The translations under genes and the position numbers were made by a program. DNA of 64,000 nt from a virus: the IMG/VR virus record IMGVR_UViG_3300045972_000071, positions 23,618 to 87,617 of that record; one strand, 5' to 3'. This document shows positions 1 through 60,392 of the stretch, one piece after another (the stretch's first letter is position 1; the number at the start of each line of letters is the position of its first letter). Below the pieces are notes generated by a model. It was not told the origin of the DNA, did no database searches, and was given only the letters and a program-made list of their open reading frames with translations.

Positions 1-520
1 GGATCCTGCAAGCGGGCGTGTAATGTCAGTAAGTGAAGTTATGGAAGAGGTATCTAAGTATAACTGTCCGAACGTCACTATCACTGGCGGTGAACCTATG
101 GAGCAGTATGACGAACTTTGTAACCTGCTTCATGCTCTGGATGCAAATCAGTATAATGTGTCCGTAGAAACTAACGGACTGCATTCTTTCTGGCGCAGAA
201 ATGCACCGATGATACATGCAACCTTTGTTGTGGATATCAAGAATGAAGGATTTATGGCATTATCCCGTATTGTAAACATGGGGCTTACATCTTCTGACAT
301 ACTCAAAATGGTAGTGGGCAGTGAAGCTGACTTTGCTGTGGCGTGTACACGAAAGAGAGAATTGCAAGAACGTGGTGTTAAAGCCAGATTCGCATTTTCT
401 CCAGAGTTCGGGAAAGTAGATCCAGACAGGATTCTTTCTTGGATGAAGAAATACGATCAAAATGATGCTATCCTTAATTTTCAGGCCCACAAAGTGCTTA
501 ATTTGACAGAGAATAATTAA
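1..520 (+). CDS. queE: 7-carboxy-7-deazaguanine synthase QueE (radical SAM), 5'-truncated by the window edge
   Basis: VTITGGEPM, SVETNG, DILKMVV and C-terminal QxHK motifs. The frame is open back to position 2 (DPASGRVM...), so the CxxxCxxC motif lies upstream of the window. folE and queC are nearby. Confidence 0.88.
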   Translation, partial: DPASGRVMSVSEVMEEVSKYNCPNVTITGGEPMEQYDELCNLLHALDANQYNVSVETNGLHSFWRRNAPMIHATFVVDIKNEGFMALSRIVNMGLTSSDILKMVVGSEADFAVACTRKRELQERGVKARFAFSPEFGKVDPDRILSWMKKYDQNDAILNFQAHKVLNLTENN

Positions 521-579: not shown

Positions 580-1200
580 ATGGGATGCAGTGTATTGGGT
601 TGTACAAACCATGAATTTAGTACAGGGCATGGGGACAGAAAGAAAAGAACAGGTAAATGTAGAAAACATCACTATAATTTACCTAGTAGACACTTGACCA
701 GTGATCCAAATATATATGTGATAGATGGTCCTATATGCAGGATAACGTGCCATAAAAAAGATAACTCTATCGCAGGTTATGCCATAATAGATACAGAAGA
801 TATGGAAAAATGTATTCCTTATAAATGGGGAATAACTTCGGATGGGTATGTAGTAAACGGTAAAAATCAAATTCGCCTGCATCATCTAATTATGAATCAT
901 ATTCCAGATAAAAATCACCCTATAGATCATAAAAATAGAATAAAATTGGATTGCAGAAAAGAGAATATGGAATTATCCACATATTCTAAAAATAATGTGA
1001 ATAGGGATTTAAAAAACAATACTTCCGGTCATAAATGTGTTTATTGGAATAAACACGCTAAATCTTGGGATGTAAGAATAACTAGGAATAAGATATGCAC
1101 TCAATTAGGGTACTACAAAACTCTTGAGAAAGCCATAGAAGTTAGGGATACTTTTTATATCCAGCTTCATAAGGTATTGAACTTAACTGAGACTAACTAG
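580..1200 (+). mobile_element. Free-standing HNH-AP2 homing endonuclease 1
   Basis: N-terminal Cys-rich CSVLGC..CRKHH, AIIDTED, LHHLIM..IDHKNR..DCRKEN (HNH), NTSGHKCVYW..W..LGYYKT (AP2). RBS TAGGAGG; visibly AT-rich. Confidence 0.9.
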
Positions 1201-1338: not shown

Positions 1339-1614
1339 ATGACAAGAAGAGAACTGATTAGCGCCGTAGCTGAACAGACCAAACTGACTAAATCTGATGT
1401 GGAGCGAGTATTGTACTCAACATTCGACAAGGTCATTTCGGGACAGCTTGCGGAAGGTAACACAGTGGCTATCAATGACTTCGGTAAGTTTGAGCCGAAA
1501 TTGAAAGCCGCTCGCACTGGTCGCAATCCCGCAACGGGAGACACACTTGAAATTTCAGAAAAAATGGCACTGAGCTTTAAACCAGCATCAGCACTCAAAA
1601 ACCTGATGAACTAG
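1339..1614 (+). CDS. hup: HU-family histone-like DNA-binding protein
   Basis: MTRRELISAVAE...FGKF...ARTGRNPATG...FKPASALK; RBS AAGGAG. Confidence 0.95.
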   Translation: MTRRELISAVAEQTKLTKSDVERVLYSTFDKVISGQLAEGNTVAINDFGKFEPKLKAARTGRNPATGDTLEISEKMALSFKPASALKNLMN

Positions 1615-1651: not shown

Positions 1652-2227
1652 ATGATCGCATCCGCAAAGATTGACCTCACTGAACTGAAAGCCGCTGTCA
1701 AAGACCTGAACTCTTCTGGTCTGATTGAAGCAACCATCAAAACTGTCGGCGTAAGCAAAGAAACCCTGGCTCAGGCATTTGTTGAAGCCTGCGACTCTCT
1801 GACCGATGATAACTTCAATACCGTAACTGTTGTTGACGATGTACCTACTGCTATCGGTGCAATGTACCAGACTCTCACAGCAGAAGAAGTTGCCGAGGAA
1901 GAAACTGTGAAAGAAGCCGCAAAAGCAAAAGCCGGTAAAGAGCCCAAAGCACCGAAAGAGCCCAAAGCACCGAAAGAGCCCAAAGCACCGAAAGAGCCGA
2001 AAGAGCCCAAAGAAAAGAAAGAAATCCCGAAAGATGCATTCGGCTCCGTACTCGGATCGAAATCTGCCGCAATGAACGCTCTGATCGCCGCTGGTACTAC
2101 AATCGAAGATATCATGGCAAAAGCCGGGGTCACCCGTACTTCTGCTCTGAATCACATCAAGTTCATCGAAAAAGAACGTGGTGTCGTTATTACCCGTGAT
2201 GGTGATAACGTGTCCGGCAAGAAGTAA
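1652..2227 (+). CDS. Putative DNA-binding protein with a KEPKAP repeat linker and a C-terminal HTH-like domain
   Basis: Acidic N-terminal domain, Lys/Pro repeat, C-terminal TIEDIMAKAGVTRTSALNHI helix-turn-helix pattern. Confidence 0.6.
   Translation: MIASAKIDLTELKAAVKDLNSSGLIEATIKTVGVSKETLAQAFVEACDSLTDDNFNTVTVVDDVPTAIGAMYQTLTAEEVAEEETVKEAAKAKAGKEPKAPKEPKAPKEPKAPKEPKEPKEKKEIPKDAFGSVLGSKSAAMNALIAAGTTIEDIMAKAGVTRTSALNHIKFIEKERGVVITRDGDNVSGKK
1937..2008 (+). repeat. In-frame 18-bp tandem repeat (AAAGAGCCCAAAGCACCG x3, plus two 9-bp half units)
   Basis: Exact copies at 1937, 1955 and 1973 encode KEPKAP. Confidence 0.95.
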
Positions 2228-2292: not shown

Positions 2293-2871
2293 ATGAACCT
2301 GAAACTAGCTGAAAAACATCTGAGAAACTTGCTGATCGAAGGTTTAGGTCTTGACCTTACTGATCCTAACTTAATGGATACACCCTCCCGCATCGCTAAA
2401 ATGTACACCAAAGAACTGTTTCACAATGTCGGGGAAGAATACCCGGCAGAAGAACTGCGTAGTTTTCCCAATGATAATAATTATAATCAGATCGTAATGG
2501 TCGATAATATACACTTTGATTCCATGTGTTCACATCACTTTATGCCGTTCTCCGGTAAAGCATGGTTCTTATACATTCCCGACAAAACTCTTGCAGGGGT
2601 GTCTAAATTACCACGTCTTGTTGAGCATTATTCTGCTCGTCCTCAGCTTCAAGAAAACTTGTGTCACGAAATACTCAACAGATTTATTGATGTTGTTCAG
2701 CCGAAAGGTGCCATGCTTGTTATGCGGGCAATACACGGGTGCATGTCTTGTCGGGGTGTTCGTCAATACAATAACACTGGAATGATATCATCTGCTTTGT
2801 ATGGTTCTTTTGAACAACAATCTACCCGAGAAGAAGCAATGGGACTCATTGCACTATCCTCACATCAATAG
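2293..2871 (+). CDS. folE: GTP cyclohydrolase I
   Basis: DTPSRIAKMY, SMCSHHFMPF, GVSKLPR, RPQLQE, HGCMSCRGV. Confidence 0.97.
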   Translation: MNLKLAEKHLRNLLIEGLGLDLTDPNLMDTPSRIAKMYTKELFHNVGEEYPAEELRSFPNDNNYNQIVMVDNIHFDSMCSHHFMPFSGKAWFLYIPDKTLAGVSKLPRLVEHYSARPQLQENLCHEILNRFIDVVQPKGAMLVMRAIHGCMSCRGVRQYNNTGMISSALYGSFEQQSTREEAMGLIALSSHQ

Positions 2872-2879
2872 GAGATACA

Positions 2880-3491
2880 ATGGATTCCCCTTACATTCTC
2901 AAACCTGCTGAGAATCGCACCGAAGCCGAAGTAAAGTATGGTAATCACTTTGAAAGAAATGTATACTTGAAGGGTGAGAAACTTGATGCCCGTGCCGCAC
3001 TGCGTTATGCCATAGCTTCTGCTTACATAGAAGAAGGTATGAATGTTCTTGATATAGGATGTTCTAACGGATATGGTTCTGCTCTGTTGACCTCTAAAAT
3101 AAATTATACAGGTATTGATTATGATGCTAATATAATTACATTAGCGAATGAACTGTTTGCCGATGATAATCATTCCTTTGTATGTTGCAAAGCACAAGAG
3201 TTTCCAATGACAAAACGGTATGATGTAATCATAGCTTATGAGTTTTTGGAACATATTACAGATGGTGTTGCATTTGCCCAGGAGTTAAAGAAACACTGTA
3301 ATCATTTATTTTGCTCTGTACCGTATAATGAGAAACCTGGGTTCTGGGGGGAGCATCACGTAATACACCGACTGATTGAAAAAGATTTCCCTGGATTCAG
3401 TTACAATTACATTTCATTTGAAGGTACATTGCTAGACGCACCGGAATATATTGATGGTTCAAATCTCATGTTATTACATTGGAGTAGATGA
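2880..3491 (+). CDS. Class I SAM-dependent methyltransferase (small-molecule/sugar type)
   Basis: VLDIGCSNGYGS motif I, GIDYD, YDVIIAYEFLEHI. No DPPY/NPPY or PC DNA-methyltransferase motif. Confidence 0.88.
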   Translation: MDSPYILKPAENRTEAEVKYGNHFERNVYLKGEKLDARAALRYAIASAYIEEGMNVLDIGCSNGYGSALLTSKINYTGIDYDANIITLANELFADDNHSFVCCKAQEFPMTKRYDVIIAYEFLEHITDGVAFAQELKKHCNHLFCSVPYNEKPGFWGEHHVIHRLIEKDFPGFSYNYISFEGTLLDAPEYIDGSNLMLLHWSR

Positions 3492-3507
3492 TGATTTATA
3501 CCAATGT

Positions 3508-3588
3508 AAAGCGGCAAGAGAATTACATGGTGAATATGCTGTCCTAAACAAAATTCAGTTATTGAGGAGAAGTACATGCAAAAAATAA
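3508..3588 (+). pseudogene. C-terminal remnant of an HNH-AP2 endonuclease
   Basis: Reads KAARELHGEYAVLNKIQLLRRS, matching the HNH3 end AKELHGEFAVLNKIPLIRRR. Confidence 0.75.
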
Positions 3589-4709
3589 AAGTCGCATTGG
3601 TGGGGGTCGGCAACTGTGCATCCTCTCTTGTTCAAGGAGTCAGCTACTACTCAATGAAACAAGAATCCAATATACCTGGTATTATGTTCCCTGATATTGG
3701 CGGATACAAACCTTGGGACATTGAGTTTGTTGCCGCATGGGACGTTGACTGTAGAAAAGTAGGAGAACAACTAAGGGACGCCATCTTTGCTAGTCCTAAC
3801 TGCTGTCGCTTCTTTCATTGGGAAATTGATGATAACTGCATTGTCAGAAAAGGTCCTGTTCTTGACGGCGTTGCACCTCACATGCTTGACTACCATGAAA
3901 ACATTCACTTTGAACTAGATGATAGTCCTAATGATGATCTGGAAGAAGTTAAATGCATTCTGCGGGAACGTGAAGTGGACGTTGTTCTCAACTACTTGCC
4001 AGTAGGAAGTAAACTCGCTACTGACTTCTGGGTAAGAGCCTGTGTGCAGGCGAGAGTACCGCTTGTGAACTGTATACCAGAGTTTATTGCTTCTGATCCA
4101 GTCTATGAGCGTATGTTCGTTGAAGCTGGTATTCCTATCATTGGGGATGATATGCGTTCACAAGTTGGTGCAAGCGTTCTATCCCAAGTATTGCAGGAAC
4201 TTGCATTTGATCGCGGGTGTCATGTAAAGTTTCATCAGCAGATAAATGTTGGGGGTAATACCGACTTTGCAAATATGATGGATAATAAGCGTATCCGATC
4301 AAAGAAGATATCCAAAGAGAATGTTATACGTTCTCAGAACGATATCAGGGGAATTGAAGCACCGAAAGATTCTATCTATGCCGGCCCTTCTTCATTCATT
4401 CCCTACTTGAAAGATAATAAAGTTGCATACATTCGCATGGAACTGGAGGGATTCGGTGGAGCACCTATTGAAATCGACTGTAAATTATCTGTACAGGATT
4501 CTGAAAACTCTGCTGGTATTGTTATTGACGCCATTCGTTATCTTAAAGTGGCACATGAAATGGGAATATCCGGAGCGTTACGGGGACCTTCAGCATGGAC
4601 ACAAAAGACACCACCACAGCAGATGCAATATCGGGATGCTATGGAAGAATGCAAAGCCCTTGCGGAAAGGAGATATACCGAGTGTACGATAAATCAGGTA
4701 AAAAAGTAA
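3576..4709 (+). CDS. ino1: myo-inositol-1(3)-phosphate synthase
   Basis: KVALVGVGNCASSLVQG, NYLPVGS, VNCIPEFIASDP, IGDDMRSQVGAS, QINVGGNTDF, DNKVAYIR, DSENSAG. Confidence 0.95.
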   Translation: MQKIKVALVGVGNCASSLVQGVSYYSMKQESNIPGIMFPDIGGYKPWDIEFVAAWDVDCRKVGEQLRDAIFASPNCCRFFHWEIDDNCIVRKGPVLDGVAPHMLDYHENIHFELDDSPNDDLEEVKCILREREVDVVLNYLPVGSKLATDFWVRACVQARVPLVNCIPEFIASDPVYERMFVEAGIPIIGDDMRSQVGASVLSQVLQELAFDRGCHVKFHQQINVGGNTDFANMMDNKRIRSKKISKENVIRSQNDIRGIEAPKDSIYAGPSSFIPYLKDNKVAYIRMELEGFGGAPIEIDCKLSVQDSENSAGIVIDAIRYLKVAHEMGISGALRGPSAWTQKTPPQQMQYRDAMEECKALAERRYTECTINQVKK

Positions 4710-5104
4710 TTCAGTCCTTTGATCTTGACGGTGTGATCTTCATCAATGGAAATATACCCGGACTAAGACCTACTGTACATGATATTATTATCACTGGAAG
4801 ATCCTTCGAAGAAGCAGAAGGAACTTACTGGGCATTAAAAAATGTAGGTATAGATAATCGGGTATATTTCAATCGTCTGCTGTTCGATGAAAAGACTAGA
4901 ATCACATCGGGACAGCATAAGGGACGCACTCTCCGCACTCTCATAAGCGAAGGACATAACATCGTCTGTCACTATGATGATGATGAAATTCAGATAGCGG
5001 AGATCAGCAAATATGTGTCAATACCAATCATTCACATTAAACATGAACTCACTGAGAAGGAGAACATTCGTCATGACCAAGAAAAAGATAGCAATCCTGT
5101 ATAG
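4682..5104 (+). CDS. HAD-superfamily phosphatase (capless)
   Basis: FDLDGV motif I, ITGRS motif II, K, YDDD motif IV. Probable GTG start at 4682 after AAGGAG, overlapping the ino1 end. Confidence 0.8.
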   Translation: MYDKSGKKVIQSFDLDGVIFINGNIPGLRPTVHDIIITGRSFEEAEGTYWALKNVGIDNRVYFNRLLFDEKTRITSGQHKGRTLRTLISEGHNIVCHYDDDEIQIAEISKYVSIPIIHIKHELTEKENIRHDQEKDSNPV

Positions 5105-5909
5105 CGGGGGATTAGACAGCTTCATCATGTACAATATGGCAAAGTTTTATCATCCGGGCGATGAAATTATTGCTGTATACTTCGATCACGGCGCTTCCTA
5201 CTGTAAGCGGGAGATAGAAAAACTCCCCGACTTTGTGCAAGTACGCAAGCTCGACTGGCTCGATGAAACCCACACTACTGTTACACAACCAGGTAGACGT
5301 GAAGGTGCAATTATGATACCGGGACGTAATCTGGTGTTTGCTACCGCACTCGTTTGTCAAGAACTACCTGACGAACTTTGGATTGGTGCTCTACACGGTG
5401 AGACACATGAGAAGGGTACGGACAAGAACTACACGTTCCTTGCTAAGATGAATGAAACCCTTAATTATGTTGTCGGTCCTTTCCGAAACAAGGTTCCTAT
5501 GTACTGTAAGTTCCCCCTTGCTGATTTGAAGTTGGATAAACTCGATTCAGTTAAGTGGGCACTCACTCATGGAATTAGTCGTGAACAACTGATGCGTACT
5601 CGCTCCTGTCATGATGGTAGTACAGATAAGTGTGGTGCTTGTATTCAGTGTGTTAAACGATGGGCTGTGTTCGGGGCATGTGGATTCACCGAACTGTATG
5701 ATACACATCCACTTGATTCGGAATTCGGTAAGAAATTCGTATCTGACCTGGTCAAGTGTGAACTTGGGGAAGATGATTACTACGGAGAAGAGACAAGAGC
5801 GGAGATAATGCCACATCTACATTTCATGGCTAACACATTCCCTTCTCTCTTCGAGGAAGAAACACTTGCTGATATCCGTAGACTACAAAATCTGAGTAGG
5901 GATTACTAA
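5073..5909 (+). CDS. queC: QueC-like PP-loop ATPase (7-cyano-7-deazaguanine synthase family, divergent)
   Basis: YSGGLDS, IPGRNL and TRSC..CGACIQCVKR Zn site. ATG at 5073 after AAGGAG. Confidence 0.85.
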   Translation: MTKKKIAILYSGGLDSFIMYNMAKFYHPGDEIIAVYFDHGASYCKREIEKLPDFVQVRKLDWLDETHTTVTQPGRREGAIMIPGRNLVFATALVCQELPDELWIGALHGETHEKGTDKNYTFLAKMNETLNYVVGPFRNKVPMYCKFPLADLKLDKLDSVKWALTHGISREQLMRTRSCHDGSTDKCGACIQCVKRWAVFGACGFTELYDTHPLDSEFGKKFVSDLVKCELGEDDYYGEETRAEIMPHLHFMANTFPSLFEEETLADIRRLQNLSRDY

Positions 5910-5956
5910 TGGATAGTTCAATCTTTCTCGACTCTTTATTATTCTTGACTTTATAG
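5909..5956 (+). pseudogene. Orphaned original 5' end of the dpdA-like gene (MDSSIFLDS, then 6 unrelated codons and a stop)
   Basis: TAATG coupling to queC; the first 9 codons duplicate 6779-6805. Confidence 0.8.
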
Positions 5957-5973
5957 AATGCATGATATAATAT
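5945..5973 (+). promoter_or_regulatory. Promoter carried by the HNH2 cassette
   Basis: TTGACT, then TGa-TATAAT (extended -10). Confidence 0.55.
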
Positions 5974-6003
5974 CCTTCTAACATAAATAATTAGGAGGAT
6001 ATT

Positions 6004-6786
6004 ATGTCAGAATGTATTTGGGAAGGTTGCACAGAGGATGGTAATAATAAAGGATACTGTAAAAAACATTATGATAAATGGTATTACAAATTGTGTAGAG
6101 AGAAAGCCGGACTAGCCCAATATACAAATCAAAATCCCATAAGAAAACGGACAAAAATAACCGGTACATGCAATGTGGAGGGATGTGACTCACAAATTCA
6201 CTGTAAGGGTGTTTGCTACAGGCATTATCTACATCTACGAAATCATGGAGAAATTAGGGAGAGAACTAGAATAACTCCTAATGATTTTATCATTGACGGC
6301 GACACCTGTAAAATAGGTTGTTATAACATCTACTGTGATCTAGTAGGTTATGCTTTAATTGATGCCGAAGATGTAGATAGATGCAAACCACATAAATGGT
6401 ATTTTGAAGTAGATGGTTATGTGAGTAGTACAACAGCAGGAAGTTTGCACCATTTTATATTAGGCACTAAACCTAGAAGTGGTGTATTTCCAGATCATAA
6501 AAACAGAGTATGCCATGATAATAGGAAAGATAATTTAAGAATTGCAACCACATCACAAAATGCCTGTAATTCTAAAATAAACTCCCGTAATAAAACAGGA
6601 TATAAGGGTGTTTACTTTAACGGAAAAGAGTTTGTAGTTTATATATGTTCAAACGGTAAAAACAATCTTGTGGGTAAGTACAATACGAAGGAGGAAGCGG
6701 CTATGATTTACAACCAGAAAGCCAAAGAGCTTCACGGAGAGTTTGCATTTCAAAATACTCTCAAAGAGAGTGTGGTCATTGGATAG
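6004..6786 (+). mobile_element. Free-standing HNH-AP2 homing endonuclease 2
   Basis: Two CxxxGC..CxxHY repeats, ALIDAED, PDHKNR..DNRKDNLR, TGYKGV..AKELHGEFA. Confidence 0.92.
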
Positions 6787-7645
6787 TTCAATATTCCTCG
6801 ATAGTGGTGCTTTCTCCGCAATGACATCTGGACAGACCCTAGATGTGTATGCCTACATTGATTATGTCAATGAGCATAAGGAGTTCTTTGATCTGTATGC
6901 TAACCTTGACGTAATAGGTTCTGCTGAAGGTACATGGAAGAATCAAAGGATAATGGAGAAAGCGGGACTTAATCCATTACCTGTCTATCACATCAATGAA
7001 GATCCTAAGTTTCTTGCGATGGCAATGGAGTATGATTACTTTGCTGTTGGGGGAATGGCAAGATCGAGTTCCGCTTCATTGCAGTTCCAAGTAGATGAAA
7101 TATTCTCTATCATCTGCCCGAAGAGCAACGACTATTTTCCTACTCATAAAATACATGGGTTCGGAACTACTAAACCAAGTATCATGGTCAGCTACCCCTG
7201 GTACTCTGTTGACTCTTCTTCATGGGTTAAATATGGTCTGTACGGTATTGTGCTGATACCCCGATTCTTTCACGGTAAGCCTACATACAATAAGCCACCT
7301 ATGACTGTTGTTATGTCGAACAGATCAAAAGCAATCGGAGATCAACTCCACTTTGCAAACATTTCAGCAATGGAAAAGGAAGCTATCCTTAACTACTTTG
7401 CTGAGAAAGGTATCTCTATAGGAGAATCTTACATCGTCAATGTTGAAGCAGGGCACGAACTGCTGGACAATGAAGTCTGGATAAACAAAGAGAAGACGAA
7501 AGTGGAACAGATTTGTGAGTACGGTCTGATAAATAATCATGTAGCCCGTGACCATGCAAACTTGCTTTACTTTCTTGACCTTGAGAAGTTTCAGCAGAAG
7601 TGGCCATGGCAGTGGAAAAAGAAATCAGGGAGATTAGATATATGA
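6779..7645 (+). CDS. dpdA: TGT-fold DNA base transglycosylase, DpdA-like
   Basis: FLDSGAFS, NLDVIG, PVYH, AVGG, HGFG and YPWYSVDSSSW motifs; deazaguanine pathway context. TTG start at 6779 inferred from the duplicated N-terminus. Confidence 0.75.
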   Translation: MDSSIFLDSGAFSAMTSGQTLDVYAYIDYVNEHKEFFDLYANLDVIGSAEGTWKNQRIMEKAGLNPLPVYHINEDPKFLAMAMEYDYFAVGGMARSSSASLQFQVDEIFSIICPKSNDYFPTHKIHGFGTTKPSIMVSYPWYSVDSSSWVKYGLYGIVLIPRFFHGKPTYNKPPMTVVMSNRSKAIGDQLHFANISAMEKEAILNYFAEKGISIGESYIVNVEAGHELLDNEVWINKEKTKVEQICEYGLINNHVARDHANLLYFLDLEKFQQKWPWQWKKKSGRLDI

Positions 7646-7821
7646 GAATTTACTTAGCAGGGAACTTCCCGCAGTTATCGAAAAAAGAATCTGAAATGGT
7701 CATGGTGGAGAACATAAAGAAAGCGGACTCTGCTTATAACCGACTCATTACTTATTTCTTTCCTAAGTATTGCACCACTGTTATCTCAATCAAAAAGGAT
7801 ATGATTGAGGGTAAAATTTAA
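7642..7821 (+). CDS. 59-aa protein (MRIYLAG...RLITYF), possibly the detached N-terminal piece of the transglycosylase
   Basis: ATGA overlap with the dpdA-like stop; GGGAG RBS. Confidence 0.6.
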   Translation: MRIYLAGNFPQLSKKESEMVMVENIKKADSAYNRLITYFFPKYCTTVISIKKDMIEGKI

Positions 7822-7850
7822 TTAACAGGTACATGAATTTGTGATATAAT
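7822..7850 (+). promoter_or_regulatory. Sigma70-like promoter for the clamp/polymerase operon
   Basis: TTAACA-17nt-TATAAT with a TGTG extension. Confidence 0.7.
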
Positions 7851-9093: not shown

Positions 9094-9297
9094 ATGGAGC
9101 AGCCAGAGAACACCATGATAGAGCGTCCGCAACTGTTTGTTCCCGATGGAATGAAGTTCATTCATGTCCTTCGTAAAGCAATGCAAGAAGCACGTAAGCA
9201 TGGTATTGATGAAGTAGCAATGGTAAGAGATATACAGAGTCATAATGACATCAAGGATAGAATGAATAAACTTCACATCTACTTTGAGGTGGTATAA
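9094..9297 (+). CDS. Hypothetical protein
   Basis: GAGG RBS; abuts both neighbours. Confidence 0.6.
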   Translation: MEQPENTMIERPQLFVPDGMKFIHVLRKAMQEARKHGIDEVAMVRDIQSHNDIKDRMNKLHIYFEVV

Positions 9298-11930
9298 TGG
9301 CAAAGGTGAGAGCATTCTTCGATGATGATGAACTTGACTCCGTAGGTATAAACGGGGCTGGAAGCGGTGCATGTGAGAAGTGTGGTTTAGTTTCAGGATG
9401 CAAGACACCTATGATGGGCTATACAGGTGAGGGGAAGAAGAGAATCCTCATCGTTGCAGAAGCCCCAAGCGAAGCAGAAGATAGAAGCGGTAAGCCGTTC
9501 ACAGGTGACACAGGTAAATGGTTTGCTGAAAAGTTACGCAATAAAGGTATTGACATTGATACTGATTGCTGGAAAACTAACTCTGTCGGCTGTCACCCCA
9601 CTAATCAGAAGGATTGCAAACCCACAAAAGCACAAGTCAAGCATTGTCGTCCACGTGTTATGCGTACTATCGCAGAACTTAAACCTAAGTATATATGGTT
9701 AATGGGTTCCGATGCCATCTATTCTTACTTCCATGAAAGAGAAAATAATACAAATGTTGATAGATGGAGAGGGCTGTGCATTCCTGATGTTGAAAAGAAA
9801 GCATGGATCATTCCATTGTATCATCCTGCTTATGCTTTAAAGTTAGAAAAAGACGACCATTTTCAATCTACATACGACAGGGATTTATCTCATGCCATCC
9901 GATGCTCTAAATTTGCAGACCTCCCAGAAGAAATGTCCCTCAAAGGGGCAAAGATCCTCAAGACTTATGAAGAGACCGTTGCCGCACTCGAAAGAGTATT
10001 GGATGAACGTCCGGATAGGTTCGCTTTCGATTATGAGACCACGGGTCTCAAACCCTATCGCTCAGGCCACAGAATAGCTACGGCATCCTTCTGCTCTGAT
10101 TATGATACCGCTTATGCATTCCCGTATCAGTATCGTAAGCATTGGGATAATAATCAGCTTACACGAATCGGTGATCTATGGTGTGATATCATGGAGCATC
10201 AAAAAATCAAGAAGATAATGCACAACCAGAAGTTTGAAGATATGTGGACACGTGAAATTATGGGTGTTGACATTGCAAACAAATGGTGGTGCTCAATGAA
10301 CACCGCACATATTCTTGATGGTAGAACAGAGTTCTCAGGTCTTAAATTCCAATCTTTAATTCGTTGGGGAATACCTGACTATGATTCTGAGATTGAAAAG
10401 TATCTGAAATCCCCTGATAAAAGCACACCATACAACAGGGTCATGGAAGCACCGCTGAATGACTTATTGCTGTATAATGCCATTGATAGTCTGCTTACAT
10501 TCAGATTACAAGAGGAGCAAGAAGATGAACTGGTAAAACTACCTAGTCAAGACAAAGCACGAAACTTCTTTCAGGGAGGGTTGAACACCTTATGTAACTT
10601 GCAAGAGAACGGTATCCCTCTCAATCGTCAATACTACTTGGATCAAGATATTGAGATAGGTAGCAGAATATTGAAGGCAAAAGAGTCTTTGCACAACTTT
10701 GATGAAGCAAAGCGTTTTCTCCGTGATAAAGGACGTGTCATAAACTTCGGCTCCTCTGATGATCTTGTCGAACTGTTCTTCAACGTCATGCAACTTCCGA
10801 AAGGGAAACTTACCCCGGGGGGTAAACCGTGTGTTGATGCAGGAGTGCTTGCTACGCTTAATACGCCCATTGCAAAAGAGATTACCAAGATTTCAAAATT
10901 AGAGAAGATCAAGGGAACGTACCTGGGTCAGTTTAATCGGGAGATAGAAGATGATGGAAAACTTCATCCGTTTTTTGATTTGCACACAACAAATACTTAC
11001 CGTGGTTCTTCTTCTTCACCCAACTTTCAGAACATACCAGTGCGAGATTTTGAGGCGATGTCGATCACTCGGGGTGGGATTATTCCTTCTTTGGGTAATC
11101 AATTGGTTGATTGGGATTACGGTTCTATGGAAGTTAGAATCATTGCCTGTGTTACGCAAGATCCTGTTTTAATGAGGTATATTGAAGATTCTACTTCTGA
11201 TATGCATAGAGACCAAGCAAAAGATTGGTTCTCTTTCACTGATGCAGAATGGGCGACTATCGACAAGAAACTGGCAAAAGCTGTCCGATTTGAATCAAAG
11301 AATGGATTCGTCTTTGCTGAGTTTTACGGATCATACTACGGCTCTATTGCCCGAACTATGTTCCCTAAGCTGAAAGAACTTTCTATCGGTGAAACTAATC
11401 TGTTTGAACATCTACGCAGTAAGGGTGTAATTCGATCACTCAGCACTGCCGCTGATGATTTTGAGAATCACACCAAGAGAGTTGAGCAAAGATTCTGGAA
11501 TAAGTTTAAAGCGGTAAAAAAGTGGCAAGAGAAAGCATTTGCATCCTATCTTGAAAAAGGATACATCGAACAGATGTTTGGATTCCGATGCGGGGGTTGG
11601 TTATCTAAGAATGATATATGCAACTACCCCATTCAGGGAACAGCATTCCACTGTCTAGTATGGTCACTAGGACAACTTGACAAGCGAATGAAAGACGAAC
11701 GTATGGACTCTTTGCTAATAGGGCAGATCCACGATTGCTGTCTTGGAGATATCACCGTAGATGAACACGATCATTGGTGCCACATGTCTCACAAGATAGC
11801 GACACAAGAGATTCGGGAAGCATTCAAGTGGATAATCGTACCTTTAGATATCGAATTTGAAGAGTCTGGAATCAATGAACCGTGGAGCGTGAAAAAAGAA
11901 TTTATGCCAAAGTTTTTAAATCATAGGTAG
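9297..11930 (+). CDS. Family A DNA polymerase with an N-terminal family-4 uracil-DNA-glycosylase-like domain and 3'-5' exonuclease
   Basis: UDG-like: CEKC, AEAPS, GKPFTG, GCHP, YHPAY. Exo: FDYETTG, HNQKFE, YNAID. Pol: TYRGSSSSPNFQN, DYGSMEVR, NYPIQGTA, QIHD. Confidence 0.95.
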   Translation: MAKVRAFFDDDELDSVGINGAGSGACEKCGLVSGCKTPMMGYTGEGKKRILIVAEAPSEAEDRSGKPFTGDTGKWFAEKLRNKGIDIDTDCWKTNSVGCHPTNQKDCKPTKAQVKHCRPRVMRTIAELKPKYIWLMGSDAIYSYFHERENNTNVDRWRGLCIPDVEKKAWIIPLYHPAYALKLEKDDHFQSTYDRDLSHAIRCSKFADLPEEMSLKGAKILKTYEETVAALERVLDERPDRFAFDYETTGLKPYRSGHRIATASFCSDYDTAYAFPYQYRKHWDNNQLTRIGDLWCDIMEHQKIKKIMHNQKFEDMWTREIMGVDIANKWWCSMNTAHILDGRTEFSGLKFQSLIRWGIPDYDSEIEKYLKSPDKSTPYNRVMEAPLNDLLLYNAIDSLLTFRLQEEQEDELVKLPSQDKARNFFQGGLNTLCNLQENGIPLNRQYYLDQDIEIGSRILKAKESLHNFDEAKRFLRDKGRVINFGSSDDLVELFFNVMQLPKGKLTPGGKPCVDAGVLATLNTPIAKEITKISKLEKIKGTYLGQFNREIEDDGKLHPFFDLHTTNTYRGSSSSPNFQNIPVRDFEAMSITRGGIIPSLGNQLVDWDYGSMEVRIIACVTQDPVLMRYIEDSTSDMHRDQAKDWFSFTDAEWATIDKKLAKAVRFESKNGFVFAEFYGSYYGSIARTMFPKLKELSIGETNLFEHLRSKGVIRSLSTAADDFENHTKRVEQRFWNKFKAVKKWQEKAFASYLEKGYIEQMFGFRCGGWLSKNDICNYPIQGTAFHCLVWSLGQLDKRMKDERMDSLLIGQIHDCCLGDITVDEHDHWCHMSHKIATQEIREAFKWIIVPLDIEFEESGINEPWSVKKEFMPKFLNHR

Positions 11931-42132: not shown

Positions 42133-44478
42133 CTACCCCCATACCGTAAATGTTACTTCATCACTACTAAAATCAAAACTTATTCCAATTAAGGTGTAGT
42201 TCTTGGTCATGTAAAATCTATTGAAGTTAATGTAAATTACATCTTTTCCCATAGTAGGAAATAATGAACCTAATGCACTTCTATGTGCCCTTACTGTGTA
42301 TGTATTTGAATTGCTTCTTAAGGTTAATTGCCGTGTTGCCTCTAATTCAGCAGAAGTTCCATCTACAAAACAAGAGTCAAAAGTTAATGCTGGTGCCATT
42401 GGATGCATTATCTGAACAGTAGGAGATGTCTTTACGGCTGTTTGATACTCCATGCCCAATAAAGCTATGATAGCTAAATCCGGAGTTGTTCGGAACGACC
42501 TACTTCCATAAGGACCGTAACTGGACATGATTAGACCGAATGGTCCACCACTAAACATGTAATTTGAATTATAATTAGTTAGGGTTATAAACTCCCATGA
42601 TACACCGTCGGATGAAATTGCATATGTCTTACTTGGATTAGTTGTAGCCATGGCATAAAAAGTGCCATCATAAAAATACATTCTTGTGTAAGTATTTAAT
42701 GAACTAACGGTAGTAGAAGTCCATGTTAATCCATTGTCTTTTGATATGGCAATAGTACCACTAGATTCATGGGCAATGAACATTCCATTACCGTAGCAAA
42801 CCGATACCCATGAAGTTCCTGTTGGCAATGTTCTAATAGACCACGTTGCTCCATAGTTACTGGAATATGCATATCTATTAGTACCTGTTTCAAGAATGAT
42901 AGCGTATGTGCCTTCATTATGTGCAATCTTAGACCAGTTACCACTTGATGTGGTTGTATTCCATGAAGTGTATGTTCCTGTACCAGAAAAATACAAATTA
43001 GATGTGCCTGGGGCAGAGGCAATGAAATACATACCATTAAATACTAAATTATCCCACACAAACGAACCTGGTAATGCAGTAACTACCCAAGACACTCCGT
43101 TGTTGATTGAATATGCCACACTATTTGTGTTTATAATGACAAATCTATCTCCGCCATAAGCGATAGCTCTAGGAGTAAAAGGAGCCGCGGTAGATAGTAA
43201 TGTAAGGCCACCATCAACTACAGAAGAGTAAACGGTCGTGCCTGTAATGAGCATAAACATACCATTACCATACACCCCTATGTAAGTACCATATGCATCA
43301 AAGTTTTTTTCCTCCATACCCACGGCACCTAAAGTAGAAGGATCTTGTTTTGTATAGTTACGGGAATGATTTATAGTGACACTCCAGCAAGGAAGTCCCC
43401 TGCCCTCATCATTATTTACTACTTTTTGAACATCCAGGATACTGTTAGCGTTTAAAGAAATGTACGGAGTATCGGCACTGACATCCTTCAATATGCCCAG
43501 TCTATAATTACCCACTAGAGGATTGACGCCCCACCAACCACCGATACTGCTCATTAATTTATCTACCGCAGTTTTAATCGTCATATCCTCAGTTACATAT
43601 AAACCAACAGTAGCTCCGTTATCTGTACCTAACTGAGTTAAATCAGTTCCACTTATGGACGCTCCTACAATGTTCGACAAAATTTCGTATACACAGTCTG
43701 CGGTTCCTGTGTATGTGCCAGTACCATTGCTAGTTACATCCATAGTGACTACACCAATAGGTGTGTTAGATAGACGAACATAGTTTGCTGTGTAATTATA
43801 ATATCCAGGTACTGGCTCTTTTGACATGAGTTCCGTCATATTTACAGACTCACCTTGTAATATAGGCACCCCTTTATCTTTCACACTATTAATCACGGCA
43901 CCTGCATTTATACCAATCCCAGTATTTTGGGCAAACTCATAAATGAGTTTAGACTTATTTACAAGAATGGGCGTGATATTTTTACATGTACCGTATATTA
44001 ATGGTTTATTCTTCCCTTTTAACTCTATAGAACCTTCTAATCCATCTGGTTCTGCATTATTACCCAGATACTTCTGAGTTTGTAAAGGAACATCTGTTTT
44101 AAATTGAGGATCTTTAATCCTTATTTCTACCTCAGTATTTGAAAATACAGGTAATTCCATAACGAACTGTAGTGTCCATTTAGTCCCGGTAACAACATCC
44201 CATTCCTGTATAGTAACAGTCTGCCCATCTATACCATATCCAAGAAGATAATCCAGTTGTCCATCTGGATTAGTGAGTGTGATACTTCCATATCCTATTT
44301 TTGATTGTCCTGAGGTTCTACCACCGTCAAACAATGCGTTTGTCATTATACCAGGGTGTTTGAGTCTGGCTTGAAACCATTCACCACCCCAATACACCCC
44401 AGAACCGGAGAAGTGTCTATATGACACTTCCCCTATGTAATTCAATAATGTCATTGTTACAAGAAAGTCATTTATCAT
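42133..44478 (-). CDS. Tail tip/hub protein with an inserted beta-propeller
   Basis: LKGKNKPLIYG..KN.TP; repeated YGNG.F.A...S.DG.TW (Asp-box-like); follows the tape measure. Confidence 0.75.
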   Translation of the reverse strand: MINDFLVTMTLLNYIGEVSYRHFSGSGVYWGGEWFQARLKHPGIMTNALFDGGRTSGQSKIGYGSITLTNPDGQLDYLLGYGIDGQTVTIQEWDVVTGTKWTLQFVMELPVFSNTEVEIRIKDPQFKTDVPLQTQKYLGNNAEPDGLEGSIELKGKNKPLIYGTCKNITPILVNKSKLIYEFAQNTGIGINAGAVINSVKDKGVPILQGESVNMTELMSKEPVPGYYNYTANYVRLSNTPIGVVTMDVTSNGTGTYTGTADCVYEILSNIVGASISGTDLTQLGTDNGATVGLYVTEDMTIKTAVDKLMSSIGGWWGVNPLVGNYRLGILKDVSADTPYISLNANSILDVQKVVNNDEGRGLPCWSVTINHSRNYTKQDPSTLGAVGMEEKNFDAYGTYIGVYGNGMFMLITGTTVYSSVVDGGLTLLSTAAPFTPRAIAYGGDRFVIINTNSVAYSINNGVSWVVTALPGSFVWDNLVFNGMYFIASAPGTSNLYFSGTGTYTSWNTTTSSGNWSKIAHNEGTYAIILETGTNRYAYSSNYGATWSIRTLPTGTSWVSVCYGNGMFIAHESSGTIAISKDNGLTWTSTTVSSLNTYTRMYFYDGTFYAMATTNPSKTYAISSDGVSWEFITLTNYNSNYMFSGGPFGLIMSSYGPYGSRSFRTTPDLAIIALLGMEYQTAVKTSPTVQIMHPMAPALTFDSCFVDGTSAELEATRQLTLRSNSNTYTVRAHRSALGSLFPTMGKDVIYINFNRFYMTKNYTLIGISFDFSSDEVTFTVWG

Positions 44479-59188: not shown

Positions 59189-60319
59189 TTACTTGACGTA
59201 AGCAAGCATACGTTCAGCGGCGGCATCACTTTCTTTGGAGAGTTTTTCTTTGCTACCGGTACCTAGGTCTTTCTTTGAAGTGCTGAATCCCATTACAGAA
59301 CCCTCTTCGTCAGACCAATCTTTCAGTTCGGCATCAACAGAAGCGGCAAATGCCTCTTCATCGAGTATACCATCTGCAATAAACGCCTCATGGCCAACCA
59401 TCTTTCGTACCTTAGCAGAAAGACGCTCCGGGAGACCAGCATCAGTGAACTTCTGTGCAAAGATGTTATCTGCGGTGTGCTTCATGGATTGCTCCTGACG
59501 CAGTGCCTCAGATTTTTCCAATGCCAACAGACGCTTCTCCGACAGTTTGCTTTCCTCGGAAAGTTGTGCATTCTGCTCAGTTACATTAGCGAGTTTGCTT
59601 TCCAGGTCAGCTTTCTCTCCTGCGAACTTCGCTTCAACGCCATCAGCTACTTCTTTGGCGAGTTTCGCAAACTCCTCAGGGTGTTCTGTTTTGAACTTCA
59701 AATAATCCATTTTCACTTCCTCCTGTTCTTGAAATTTTGCTACGGATGAGATTTCTATGCATACATCTTCTGACTCGGACATTGCCGCTGATTTGGTGTT
59801 TGAATCATACCCGAATGTACATACAGATGATTCCTTGAATGTGCATTCTCTCCAAATAGTACCTGGTCCTTTCATTTCATAACCATTTACCATTGCAGTT
59901 TCTTTTTCCTGCAGGGTCTGAATCTTCGTGGGACGTGCGTAGATTGAAGCCTCGTACGGAAAGCCCTGTGCTGAGTTTTCTCTGAACTTGATACTCTCTT
60001 CTGTATCAATGAACTCGGCACCGACTACGGTGAGTTGATTTCCTTCTGTGGACAGCTTCGTTATGAATCCAATTTTCTTACCTGTTTCGTGATCTTCAAG
60101 GAGCGGGTACTTCTTTTTAGGAAATTTCATTCCCTCAAGGTCGATAGCAAGATCACCCCACCACCAATGCCCTTTTATGATACCACCAGAGTAAGCCAGC
60201 ATTTCCAGAGTAGGAGTTTGTTTTTCGATATCCCCCTCAGCGAATGTGACCTTTGCAAAACACTTTTCGTCCAATAGTTGCATTGAACCTTTGGTGAGTT
60301 GTACTGTTTCTTTTTTCAT
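59189..60319 (-). CDS. Prohead protease with a C-terminal scaffold
   Basis: AYSGG, PLLEDH...IG, YEASI, KESSVC.FG.D..T, then a charged helical tail. Confidence 0.85.
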   Translation of the reverse strand: MKKETVQLTKGSMQLLDEKCFAKVTFAEGDIEKQTPTLEMLAYSGGIIKGHWWWGDLAIDLEGMKFPKKKYPLLEDHETGKKIGFITKLSTEGNQLTVVGAEFIDTEESIKFRENSAQGFPYEASIYARPTKIQTLQEKETAMVNGYEMKGPGTIWRECTFKESSVCTFGYDSNTKSAAMSESEDVCIEISSVAKFQEQEEVKMDYLKFKTEHPEEFAKLAKEVADGVEAKFAGEKADLESKLANVTEQNAQLSEESKLSEKRLLALEKSEALRQEQSMKHTADNIFAQKFTDAGLPERLSAKVRKMVGHEAFIADGILDEEAFAASVDAELKDWSDEEGSVMGFSTSKKDLGTGSKEKLSKESDAAAERMLAYVK

Positions 60320-60335
60320 GTTATCTCCTGTCCAT

Positions 60336-60371: not shown

Positions 60372-60392
60372 ACAAAATTTGGTTGTGGAATA

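What the first reader, a model, noticed from the sequence alone, without database searches (positions are those of the whole stretch)
2293..7821. 7-deazaguanine DNA-modification cluster with an embedded inositol module: candidate inositol-linked hypermodified base
Seen: folE, SAM methyltransferase, myo-inositol-phosphate synthase, HAD phosphatase, queC-like and dpdA-like lie in one run. ino1, HAD and queC overlap each other, and the original dpdA start is TAATG-coupled to queC, so these four form a translationally coupled unit. queE lies just upstream. Established: FolE/QueD/QueE make CDG, QueC makes preQ0, and DpdA exchanges guanine in DNA. Ino1 plus a phosphatase converts glucose-6-P to myo-inositol. 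No QueF, ArcS/GAT or glycosyltransferase is recognisable in the window. Inference: the phage makes free inositol, possibly O-methylated, to decorate a 7-deazaguanine, for example by QueC-type adenylation of the CDG carboxylate and transfer to inositol. I know of no described inositol-bearing DNA base, but cannot check the literature.
Basis: partly seen in the sequence, partly recalled or inferred. Interest (0 to 1): 0.92.

Follow-up and report, generated by a model that had tools for sequence, protein, structure and literature searches.

The report
Inositol kit in deazaguanine DNA-modification cluster
An uncultured 88-kb phage has the full gene set for replacing guanine in its DNA with a 7-deazaguanine, and wired into it is a two-gene kit for making inositol that in many other phages also sits inside DNA-modification gene sets, which points to an inositol-bearing DNA base that nobody has yet shown chemically.

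Summary
On the + strand lie queE, folE, a SAM methyltransferase, an inositol-3-phosphate-synthase homologue (Ino1), a small HAD-like protein, a divergent QueC-like protein and a DpdA1-like transglycosylase. queD lies just before the window. Ino1, HAD and QueC-like overlap. An HNH homing-endonuclease gene, flanked by a 22-nt repeat, has split the old queC-dpdA junction.

The Ino1-HAD pair is a mobile module. It occurs in the same 19 of 50,697 cultured-phage records, and 505 viral contigs encode an Ino1 relative. Of the 80 contigs nearest to this one, 76 place it inside a DNA base-modification cluster: 46 TET/ADDT, 23 hmdU-kinase/BGT-like, 7 deazaguanine.

Those other settings are also DNA hypermodification clusters, which strengthens the general idea and weakens the specific QueC mechanism.

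This genome has no other modification system. Its QueC-like protein lacks two tyrosines essential in canonical QueC. Rare HAD-methyltransferase fusions fit a methylated product.

The chemistry is not shown, and my searches found nothing in print. This scan noted the same pairing on eight other genomes. Cultured Stenotrophomonas phages allow a direct test.

The parts
1..520 (+). 3' part of queE (7-carboxy-7-deazaguanine synthase). The whole gene has 240 codons and starts 203 nt before the window. queD (130 codons) lies directly before it, outside the window, and overlaps the queE start.
   Evidence: phrog_2076, QueE-like, 9.1e-10. Radical_SAM and Fer4_12 hits are weak. queD: PF01242, 3.8e-34, in the own genome. 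ORFs of L004.
580..1200 (+). HNH homing-endonuclease gene, copy 1
   Evidence: PF13392, 2.3e-06. phrog_99, 3e-27. Same blastp family as the gene at 6004-6786.
1339..1614 (+). Small HU-like DNA-binding protein, not part of the pathway
   Evidence: phrog_379, 3.7e-27
1652..2227 (+). ORF of unknown function (191 codons), with no relative in any fetched locus
   Evidence: No family over threshold. No blastp family.
2293..2871 (+). folE, GTP cyclohydrolase I
   Evidence: PF01227, 1.1e-48. phrog_2197, 2.4e-50.
2880..3491 (+). Class I SAM methyltransferase of the small-molecule type, private to this phage lineage
   Evidence: Methyltransf_23/25/31/11/12, about 1e-11. Best NCBIfam hit is UbiG, 2.1e-11, far below its cut-off. 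No relative among the ORFs of 169 loci. It is not DpdM, which belongs to DUF3109 (PMC10516641).
3576..4709 (+). Ino1-like myo-inositol-3-phosphate synthase homologue
   Evidence: PF01658, 1.8e-25. phrog_33138, 3.7e-154. 1GR0, 7.3e-90, against Ari2 6K96, 8.4e-53. TIGR03450 scores 327.5 bits, below its cut-off of 638.
4682..5104 (+). Small (140 aa) HAD-like protein without a cap domain, a putative phosphatase and the constant partner of Ino1
   Evidence: Invariant DxDGV, (T/S)G(R/K), K and DD in 19 sequences. phrog_415, 2.4e-07. All Pfam HAD hits are below cut-off. It occurs in the same 19 phage records as Ino1.
5073..5909 (+). Divergent QueC-family ATP pyrophosphatase (QueC-like)
   Evidence: PF06508, 3.9e-12. 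TIGR00364 scores 44.6 bits, below its cut-off of 150.3. The subfamily profile hits the QueC structures 2PG3 and 3BL5 only at 5e-08 and 8e-07. Motif analysis.
5909..5956 (+). Remnant of the former dpdA start. Its ATG overlaps the queC-like stop (TAATG) and opens 15 codons. Bases 5910-5931 are copy 1 of the 22-nt direct repeat.
   Evidence: Sequence. Repeat D1, 91% identity, spacing 870.
6004..6786 (+). HNH homing-endonuclease gene, copy 2, inserted between queC-like and dpdA. Its stop overlaps the dpdA start.
   Evidence: PF13392, 9e-06. phrog_99, 7.9e-31. Sequence.
6779..7645 (+). dpdA, a DpdA1-like DNA-guanine transglycosylase. The start is taken as TTG 6779; the frame is open from TTG 6743.
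   Evidence: phrog_887, 2.3e-42. 34% identity to the DpdA of phage CAjan, 8e-30. The family profile's only PDB hit is DpdA 7UI4, 5.6e-06, with D95, F99, D130, H181 and D256 aligned to D8, F12, D44, H71 and D145.
7600..7821 (+). Small ORF that overlaps the end of dpdA; function unknown
   Evidence: No family

Best explanation
The region is a complete phage 7-deazaguanine DNA-modification cluster. FolE, QueD and QueE make 7-carboxy-7-deazaguanine (CDG). A QueC-family enzyme processes the carboxylate. A DpdA1-like transglycosylase swaps the base for guanine in DNA. Into this cluster a mobile two-gene module has been inserted: an Ino1-type inositol-3-phosphate synthase and a small HAD-like phosphatase, here with a methyltransferase beside them. 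The module is translationally coupled to the QueC-like gene. Inferred: the module turns glucose-6-phosphate into a free cyclitol, possibly methylated, and the cyclitol ends up covalently on the modified base. In this genome the only enzyme able to activate a group for such coupling is the divergent QueC-like ATP pyrophosphatase. It would adenylate the CDG carboxylate and pass it to a cyclitol oxygen instead of ammonia, before or after DpdA inserts the base. Shown here: the gene identities, the overlaps, and the module's recurrent placement in three kinds of DNA-modification cluster. Inferred: the Ino1 substrate and product, phosphatase activity, any coupling step, and the final base.
For: The pathway is complete in the genome: queD, queE, folE, QueC-like and DpdA. 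The DpdA keeps the three catalytic aspartates of 7UI4 (PMC10164549, passages). Ino1 and HAD occur in the same 19 of 50,697 phage records, and HAD was found beside Ino1 in 71 of 80 viral loci. 505 viral contigs encode an Ino1 relative. Of the best 80, 39 hold TET and ADDT, 7 ADDT alone, 7 QueC-like, 23 an hmdU-kinase-like and/or BGT-like protein, and 4 (short or cut just after Ino1) none of these. On the Ino1 tree the three settings are interleaved; starred branches force at least 7, 11 and 8 changes. The window's Ino1 is 65% identical to one in a TET/ADDT locus. Within the QueC family, Ino1 linkage is confined to one clade: 22 of its 40 rows, against 0 of 30 rows outside it. This clade has H or I in place of the essential Y35, and xTDK in place of YPDC (PMC13329287 section 6). 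The own genome has no other modification system. QueC-family enzymes that pass CDG to a nucleophile other than ammonia are known (Cap9, QatC; PMC13329287 passages; abstracts in the listing). 2 of 5 long HAD forms are fused to methyltransferases.
Against: There is no chemical evidence of any kind. No enzyme known to transfer inositol is recognisable in this genome. The altered QueC pocket is not specific to inositol: 16 of the 40 rows of the same QueC-like clade have no Ino1 within 10 kb (15 of them in one subclade) and share the xTDK motif. Most Ino1-HAD pairs lie in clusters without QueC, so QueC is not needed for the product to be used. The DpdA is nearest to enzymes of phages such as CAjan, which carry the small base preQ0. 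The same cassette is combined with three different TGT-like families, which suggests that a generic small base is inserted. An ester on DNA would be labile. Ino1 scores below NCBI's equivalog cut-off, and the four lysines it keeps are also kept by Ari2, which uses fructose-6-phosphate. So the substrate is not settled. HAD membership rests on motifs only. The window's methyltransferase has no relative in other loci. The 80 loci are those nearest to the window's Ino1, include near-duplicates, and were judged only within 10 kb.
Confidence: 0.5

Rival explanations
1. The two systems are independent neighbours. The deazaguanine genes make an ordinary base (dPreQ0, dADG or dCDG). Ino1-HAD is an auxiliary metabolic module, for example one that diverts glucose-6-phosphate or makes inositol for another purpose. 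It merely accumulates in the same variable nucleotide-metabolism region of phage genomes.
For: Ino1-HAD occurs in complete or nearly complete genomes without QueC or DpdA. No inositol transferase is recognisable. 16 of the 40 rows of the QueC-like clade lack Ino1. The Ps15 authors treated ino1 as an unrelated bacterial-like gene (PMC9025141, passages). These regions also collect homing endonucleases.
Against: 76 of 80 loci place the pair directly beside base-modifying enzymes of three unrelated chemistries. The order Ino1-HAD-QueC-like is fixed, with overlapping genes, in many loci. The pair has switched setting repeatedly yet always lands in a modification cluster. Phages of Stenotrophomonas, Caulobacter and Ralstonia have no evident other use for inositol; this last point is recalled, not tested.
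Confidence: 0.25
2. The Ino1-like enzyme is not a myo-inositol-phosphate synthase. It is a family member with another sugar-phosphate substrate, like Ari2, which makes a five-membered cyclitol phosphate. The appended group, if there is one, would then be a different carbocycle, for instance a queuine-like cyclopentane polyol.
For: TIGR03450 scores 327.5 bits against a cut-off of 638. Ari2 (6K96) is the second-best structure match (8.4e-53; 2.1e-68 with the profile). The catalytic lysines are shared by Ino1 and Ari2 and so do not tell them apart. Ari2's chemistry is taken from PMC9092360 (passages).
Against: The phage profile scores 426 bits on M. tuberculosis Ino1 against 234 on Ari2. The match to Ino1 is nearly full length, at about 50% identity.
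Confidence: 0.12
3. The module's product is not attached to DNA. It protects modified DNA indirectly, for example as a small-molecule inhibitor of host enzymes that recognise hypermodified bases, such as type IV restriction enzymes or defence glycosylases. That would explain why it accompanies any kind of base modification.
For: The association is with modification clusters in general, not with one chemistry. Defence glycosylases that exploit modified bases are reported (bioRxiv 10.1101/2025.10.29.685425; only the start of the abstract seen, in the listing).
Against: No precedent is known to me. The tight translational coupling to QueC-like and the HAD-methyltransferase fusions look like steps of one biosynthetic line.
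Confidence: 0.08

Closest known systems
Phage 7-deazaguanine DNA modification with DpdA1 (Escherichia phages CAjan and 9g; Hutinet 2019, PMC6884629; Cui 2023, PMC10516641)
   Same: The gene set is FolE, QueD, QueE, a QueC-family enzyme and a roughly 290-aa DpdA. The window's DpdA is 34% identical to that of CAjan and keeps the catalytic aspartates.
   Different: The QueC here belongs to a divergent clade that lacks Y35 and the YPDC motif. An Ino1-HAD pair and a class I methyltransferase are embedded and overlap it. None of the eight described deazaguanine bases carries a cyclitol (Cui 2023, abstract and passages).
Stenotrophomonas Menderavirus phages (Moby, IME-SM1, YB07, Ps15, Mendera and others)
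   Same: They hold the cassette folE - ino1 - small HAD - QueC-like - TGT - queE. Identities to the window are 57% for Ino1, 40% for HAD and 43% for QueC-like.
   Different: They are T4-like, about 160 kb, use another TGT family (f17, phrog_10773), and have no methyltransferase or HNH gene in the cassette. The window phage is 87.6 kb, and its family A polymerase is about 24% identical to those of cultured phages.
QueC-family ligases Cap9 (type IV CBASS) and QatC (QatABCD)
   Same: These PF06508 enzymes use ATP to join the CDG carboxylate to a nucleophile other than ammonia, with a remodelled or minimal pocket (PMC13329287, passages). This is the precedent for the step proposed here.
   Different: Their acceptor is a protein N-terminus and their role is host defence. 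The window subfamily profile matches Cap9 at 5.4e-05 and QatC at 0.006 only. It is not a member of either group.
TET/JBP plus amino acid:DNA transferase (ADDT) and hmdU-DNA-kinase pyrimidine hypermodification clusters
   Same: They host the same Ino1-HAD module: 46 and 23 of the 80 nearest loci. The cultured phages Cr30 and RP13 are among them. In both settings an enzyme creates an activated carbon on a substituent of the base that a nucleophile can attack. This last point is recalled from Lee et al. 2018, a paper I did not see.
   Different: None of these genes is in the window's genome. The target base and the activating chemistry differ.
Mycobacterial Ino1 (1GR0) in the mycothiol and phosphatidylinositol pathways
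   Same: It is the best structural relative. The N-terminal GVGNCAS motif and the lysines of SKKISK, DxK and QKTPP are conserved.
   Different: The phage enzyme scores below the equivalog cut-off. Its partner is a 120-140 aa HAD-like protein of an unannotated family with more than 1000 metagenome members and no Pfam domain, not a classical inositol monophosphatase; that comparison is recalled.

Membership tests
Phage 7-deazaguanine DNA-modification system | CDG pathway genes folE, queD and queE present | tested here: met
   PF01227, 1.1e-48. PF01242, 3.8e-34, just 5' of the window. phrog_2076, 9.1e-10, and my own QueE profile, 9.4e-49.
Phage 7-deazaguanine DNA-modification system | A DpdA-type DNA transglycosylase | tested here: met
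   phrog_887, 2.3e-42. CAjan DpdA, 34% identity, 8e-30. 7UI4 is the only PDB hit of the family profile.
Phage 7-deazaguanine DNA-modification system | A 7-deazaguanine base present in virion DNA | not testable with these tools
   The phage is uncultured, and no chemical data were found for the related Menderavirus phages.
DpdA / TGT | Invariant active-site residues D95 (acid/base), D130, D256 (nucleophile), F99 and H181 (PMC10164549, passages) | tested here: met
   They align to window D8, D44, D145, F12 and H71. D8, D44 and D145 are invariant in 27 sequences. I derived the numbering offset of 20 for the tagged chain from the F99 and D95 pattern.
DpdA / TGT | TIM-barrel TGT fold | not testable with these tools
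Canonical QueC (preQ0 synthase) | SGGxDS P-loop and VPxRN motif with the essential R99 | tested here: met
   SGGLDS and IPGRN are invariant in 34 sequences.
Canonical QueC (preQ0 synthase) | The essential Y35 of YxQxHxxE, and the YPDC motif with the essential Y131 (PMC13329287 section 6) | tested here: not met
   Y35 aligns to H39, which is His in 89% of Ino1-linked members and Ile in 92% of the unlinked subclade. YPDC aligns to xTDK.
Canonical QueC (preQ0 synthase) | C(x)8CxxCxxC zinc motif | tested here: inconclusive
   The four cysteines are invariant, but the spacing is C(x)7CxxCxxC.
Canonical QueC (preQ0 synthase) | Score over the curated equivalog cut-off | tested here: not met
   TIGR00364 scores 44.6 bits against a cut-off of 150.3.
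Myo-inositol-3-phosphate synthase (MIPS/Ino1) | Catalytic domain PF01658 and near full-length similarity to a solved Ino1 | tested here: met
   89.7 bits against a cut-off of 27. 1GR0, 7.3e-90, over residues 3-351.
Myo-inositol-3-phosphate synthase (MIPS/Ino1) | The network of catalytic lysines (PMC11348189, passages) | tested here: met
   K243, K247, K282 and K344 are invariant in 22 phage sequences and align with lysines of 1GR0 and of other solved synthases. The same lysines occur in Ari2, so they do not fix the substrate.
Myo-inositol-3-phosphate synthase (MIPS/Ino1) | Score over NCBI's equivalog cut-off; conversion of glucose-6-phosphate shown | tested here: not met
   TIGR03450 scores 327.5 bits against a cut-off of 638. 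Enzyme activity cannot be tested here.
HAD-superfamily phosphatase | Motifs I-IV: DxD nucleophile and acid, S/T, K, DD | tested here: met
   D14, D16, G17, V18, K80, D100 and D101 are invariant. T or S stands at position 38 in all 19 sequences.
HAD-superfamily phosphatase | Significant match to a curated HAD model or to a solved HAD structure | tested here: not met
   Pfam hits are all below cut-off (best 0.0016; 7 weak HAD-family hits among the 19 members). There is no PDB hit. hhalign to a HAD_PNKP-positive family gives probability 20%. phrog_415 gives 2.4e-07. The fold could not be tested.
TET/ADDT or hmdU-kinase pyrimidine hypermodification | A TET/JBP oxygenase, ADDT transferase or hmdU DNA kinase in the genome | tested here: not met
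   My own profiles, which detect these proteins in 69 of the 80 loci, find none in the 87.6-kb genome. The Pfam searches had no positive control.

The most novel reading that the evidence does not exclude
Phages make a cyclitol on site and attach it covalently to an already modified DNA base. In this phage a repurposed QueC-family ATP-dependent ligase would join inositol, perhaps O-methylated, to the 7-carboxyl of 7-deazaguanine. The same two-gene kit plugs into three unrelated base-modification chemistries, which would define a class of inositol-bearing DNA bases.
Probability: 0.35. Interest if true: 0.92.

Novelty: new variant of a known kind. Interest (0 to 1): 0.8.

Why it matters
All described phage 7-deazaguanine bases carry small 7-substituents. 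All described bulky DNA decorations are sugars, amino acids or polyamines on pyrimidines. A cyclitol on a purine analogue would be a new kind of DNA chemistry and a new reaction for the QueC fold. It could affect how such phages evade restriction, CRISPR and glycosylase defences, and how well their DNA can be sequenced and cloned. The question can be tested directly, because the cassette is present in cultured Stenotrophomonas phages, and the same kit in its pyrimidine setting is present in Caulobacter phage Cr30 and Ralstonia phage RP13. Even if nothing is attached, a two-gene module found in 505 viral contigs and almost always inside DNA-modification clusters needs an explanation.

Tried and rejected
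Megablast of the region against cultured phages found nothing.

Single-protein scans of viral contigs with QueC-like and with HAD found nothing. Alignments were needed.

The idea that the window's methyltransferase is DpdM was rejected: DpdM belongs to DUF3109. The idea that it belongs to the MTase families seen beside Ino1 elsewhere was also rejected. It gave only weak class-level scores against my four MTase profiles, had no relative in 169 loci, and showed no similarity to the MTase half of the fusion P0241.

A weak QueF hit at window 2560-2712 lies inside folE and is below cut-off. It is T-fold cross-similarity, not a QueF gene.

The promoter and terminator scans were not informative: 33 promoter-like sites against 26.5 expected, and 6 terminator-like sites against 5.2 expected. 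No + strand terminator-like site lies between 2293 and 7821. The best promoter-like site (7822-7850) precedes the clamp gene.

Residues that might distinguish Ino1 from Ari2 could not be found in the papers I could read.

The HAD could not be tied to a solved structure by sequence.

Supplementary tables of Hutinet 2019 and Cui 2023 list the phages that carry deazaguanine genes and may include the Menderavirus phages. Supplements were closed, so I could not see them. The main texts mention neither Stenotrophomonas nor inositol.

Lee et al. 2018, on thymidine hypermodification, is recalled and was not seen.

Full report
WHAT IS THERE. The window is bases 23618-87617 of an 87,617-base IMG/VR virus record that CheckV rates as complete. 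All genes at its left end run on the + strand. queE has its 3' part at 1-520; the whole gene and queD lie just before the window. Then come an HNH endonuclease gene (580-1200), an HU-like gene (1339-1614) and an unknown ORF (1652-2227). The core follows: folE (2293-2871), a class I SAM methyltransferase (2880-3491), an Ino1-like gene (3576-4709), a small HAD-like gene (to 5104), a QueC-like gene (to 5909), a second HNH gene (6004-6786), a DpdA-like gene (6779-7645) and a small ORF (7600-7821). After these come the sliding clamp and a family A DNA polymerase. The polymerase is only about 24% identical to those of cultured phages, so this is not a T4-like phage.

The overlaps are real (sequence). 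The HAD-like frame opens at ATG 4595. Its most likely start, GTG 4682, follows AAGGAG and gives the same N-terminus as the homologues; it lies 28 nt inside ino1. The QueC-like start, ATG 5073, also follows AAGGAG and comes just before the SGGLDS loop; it lies 32 nt inside the HAD gene. At 5909 an ATG overlaps the QueC-like stop (TAATG) and opens only 15 codons. Bases 5910-5931 recur at 6780-6801 at 91% identity, 870 nt apart, exactly at the present TTG start of dpdA. The HNH gene lies between the two copies. Two corrections apply. queE is 1.8 kb away, not adjacent. queD is not missing from the phage.

IDENTITY OF THE PARTS: DpdA AND QueC-LIKE. The DpdA-like protein is 34% identical (8e-30) to the DpdA of phage CAjan and similar to many relatives of phages 9g and CAjan. 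A profile of 27 family members has one PDB match, the Salmonella DNA-guanine transglycosylase DpdA 7UI4 (5.6e-06). In that alignment the published active-site residues D95, F99, D130, H181 and D256 match window D8, F12, D44, H71 and D145.

The QueC-like protein keeps the P-loop SGGLDS, the IPGRN motif and four cysteines. It scores far below the QueC equivalog cut-off. Its subfamily profile reaches the QueC structures only at 5e-08. Libby et al. 2026 (PMC13329287; section 6 read) showed four residues to be essential in E. coli QueC. R99 is kept. Y35 aligns to His in Ino1-linked members and to Ile in an unlinked subclade. Y131 of YPDC aligns to a variable residue, followed by an invariant TDK.

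IDENTITY OF THE PARTS: Ino1 AND HAD. Ino1-like is closest to M. tuberculosis Ino1 (7.3e-90) and next to the five-membered cyclitol phosphate synthase Ari2 (8.4e-53). With a profile of 22 phage sequences the scores are 426 and 234 bits. The NAD-site motif and four lysines are invariant. Ari2 keeps the same lysines, and the protein is below NCBI's Ino1 cut-off. Glucose-6-phosphate is therefore the likely substrate, not a proven one.

The HAD-like protein has all four HAD motifs invariant in 19 sequences. It matches no curated model above threshold and no solved structure. Its family has more than 1000 metagenome members, none with a Pfam domain.

THE COMPARATIVE EVIDENCE: CULTURED PHAGES. Among 50,697 cultured-phage records, Ino1-like proteins covering at least 80% of the query occur in 19: 16 Stenotrophomonas Menderavirus records, 2 records of Caulobacter phage Cr30, and Ralstonia phage RP13. 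The HAD-like protein occurs in exactly the same 19. The QueC-like subfamily occurs only in the 16 Stenotrophomonas records. There the order is folE - ino1 - HAD - QueC-like - TGT - queE. Cr30, RP13 and a 389-kb record rated 98% complete have the pair but no QueC-family gene and no relative of the window's DpdA.

THE COMPARATIVE EVIDENCE: QueC-BASED SAMPLE. An alignment of the QueC-like subfamily retrieved 80 viral loci. Ino1 lies directly upstream in 24 of the 42 loci whose QueC is at least 37% identical to the window's, and in 0 of the 37 loci with other QueC types. On a QueC tree of 70 rows the subfamily is one clade of 40 rows (SH-aLRT 96). Of these, 22 are Ino1-linked, 16 are not (15 of them in one subclade) and 2 are undecidable. 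None of the 30 rows outside the clade is linked. The unlinked subclade has other accessory genes beside QueC-like: an NT5C nucleotidase, methyltransferases, an APS-kinase-like protein and a HAD_PNKP phosphatase.

THE COMPARATIVE EVIDENCE: Ino1-BASED SAMPLE. A scan that starts from Ino1 itself is less biased. It found 505 viral contigs that encode a relative, and the best 80 were kept. I profiled these with HMMs built from the earlier loci. HAD is present in 71 of 80; 3 of the 9 misses are cut within 600 bases after Ino1. The contexts were as follows.
- TET/JBP oxygenase plus amino acid:DNA transferase (PF12851 and PF18724): 39 loci.
- ADDT alone: 7 loci.
- QueC-like: 7 loci.
- A protein with the 5-hmdU DNA kinase helical domain and/or a T4 beta-glucosyltransferase-like protein, usually with a C5 DNA methylase: 23 loci.
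- None of these: 4 loci, all short or cut just after Ino1.

On an Ino1 tree (FastTree; 112 rows, 94 different) the three contexts are interleaved. Well-supported branches force at least 7, 11 and 8 changes of context. The pair is therefore a mobile module that has repeatedly moved between DNA-modification clusters of different chemistry. The deazaguanine setting is the minority one.

What those pairs are linked to instead is more DNA hypermodification. This makes it likely that the module supplies something used in base modification. It makes it unlikely that QueC chemistry is the general route.

In this genome my profiles find no TET, ADDT, kinase-like or BGT-like protein, and the Pfam searches find no GT1 and no QueF over cut-off. 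If the product is attached here, the deazaguanine enzymes must do it. The only activating enzyme is the QueC-like protein, whose substrate-side residues are changed.

QueC-family enzymes that pass CDG to a nucleophile other than ammonia exist: Cap9 and QatC (abstracts in the listing). A shared logic can be stated, though it is inference. In each setting an enzyme creates an activated carbon on the substituent of the base: an acyl-adenylate here, and a phosphorylated hydroxymethyl group in the pyrimidine systems (recalled from Lee et al. 2018). A cyclitol oxygen could attack that carbon.

THE METHYLTRANSFERASE. The window's enzyme has no relative in any fetched locus, and it is not DpdM. Even so, unrelated SAM methyltransferases sit beside the pair in other loci (Methyltransf_11/25, Methyltransf_24, FkbM and phrog_4752). 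Of the 5 long proteins that contain the HAD domain, 2 are HAD-methyltransferase fusions, and one of these resembles sugar O-methyltransferases of the CmcI type just below cut-off. The other 3 are run-ons into homing endonucleases.

WEAK POINTS.
- No chemistry is known, and I found no data on Menderavirus DNA.
- 16 of the 40 rows of the QueC-like clade lack Ino1 yet share the altered motifs.
- The cassette is combined with three different TGT-like families. The window's DpdA resembles those of phages that carry preQ0. A small base may therefore be what is inserted, with any decoration added on DNA afterwards, or not at all.
- The HAD assignment rests on motifs.
- The 80 loci are the nearest relatives, include near-duplicates, and were read only within 10 kb.

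LITERATURE AND EARLIER NOTES. Full-text searches were run for deazaguanine + inositol + phage, DpdA + myo-inositol, hypermodification + inositol + bacteriophage, and inositol-1-phosphate synthase + phage + TET. None found a paper that links inositol to a DNA base. The mentions of inositol that I read in the two DNA-hypermodification papers among those hits concern structural similarity of glycosyltransferases. The Ps15 paper lists ino1 as an unrelated bacterial-like gene. After I had reached this reading, a look-up showed that this scan had noted the same pairing on eight other genomes. Those notes agree with mine but are not independent evidence.

VERDICT. This is a new variant of the known phage deazaguanine system. 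It carries a widespread and so far undescribed inositol module, whose product most likely (about one chance in two) ends up on the modified base. The specific QueC-mediated ester is one plausible route, at roughly one chance in four.

Noticed in passing
window 580-1200 and 6004-6786: Two HNH homing-endonuclease genes of one family sit inside the deazaguanine cluster. The second is flanked by a 22-nt direct repeat of the dpdA start. The downstream, functional copy differs from the upstream one by silent changes and has TTG in place of ATG. In metagenomes the HAD gene is also found run on into HNH/NUMOD3 and GIY-YIG endonuclease genes (P0242, P0244, P0245), so this cassette is a frequent homing target.
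   Followed up: partly
L012-L018, L022, L026, L027, L034, L040, L041, L044 (viral contigs): A sister subclade of the same QueC-like clade never has Ino1. Beside QueC-like it carries other accessory genes instead: an NT5C-type nucleotidase, methyltransferases, an APS-kinase-like P-loop protein, a HAD_PNKP phosphatase and a weak PRTase-like protein. This may be a second undescribed elaboration of the deazaguanine pathway.
   Followed up: partly
L093, L094, L106, L134 and 19 more loci: A third setting of the Ino1-HAD pair has the order dCMP deaminase - thymidylate-synthase-like - Ino1 - HAD - hmdU-DNA-kinase-like - T4 BGT-like - C5 DNA methylase. The order is conserved in up to 22 of the 23 loci examined.
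   Followed up: partly
L003 (Caulobacter phage Cr30, KF301602, record 59353-60681): The gene annotated 'putative SNF2 DNA repair protein' falls in my blastp family whose member in L005 matches the Tet_JBP oxygenase domain (PF12851, 8.5e-15). The neighbouring hypothetical 409-aa protein falls in the ADDT family. Cr30 therefore probably hypermodifies a pyrimidine.
   Followed up: partly
L008/L082, L021, L046 (viral contigs): A GT1-family glycosyltransferase of about 465 aa lies beside Ino1, HAD and QueC-like in three deazaguanine-type contigs. This hints at a sugar as well as, or on, the cyclitol.
   Followed up: no
window 7600-7821: A small ORF overlaps the end of dpdA. From its internal ATG it begins MRIYLAGNF and would be 59 aa long. 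It matches no family.
   Followed up: no
window 44475-52115, minus strand: A single ORF of 2546 codons lies in the structural half of the genome. I did not examine it.
   Followed up: no
window 9297-11930: The family A DNA polymerase is only about 24% identical to any in 50,697 cultured-phage records. The phage lineage has no close cultured relative.
   Followed up: partly
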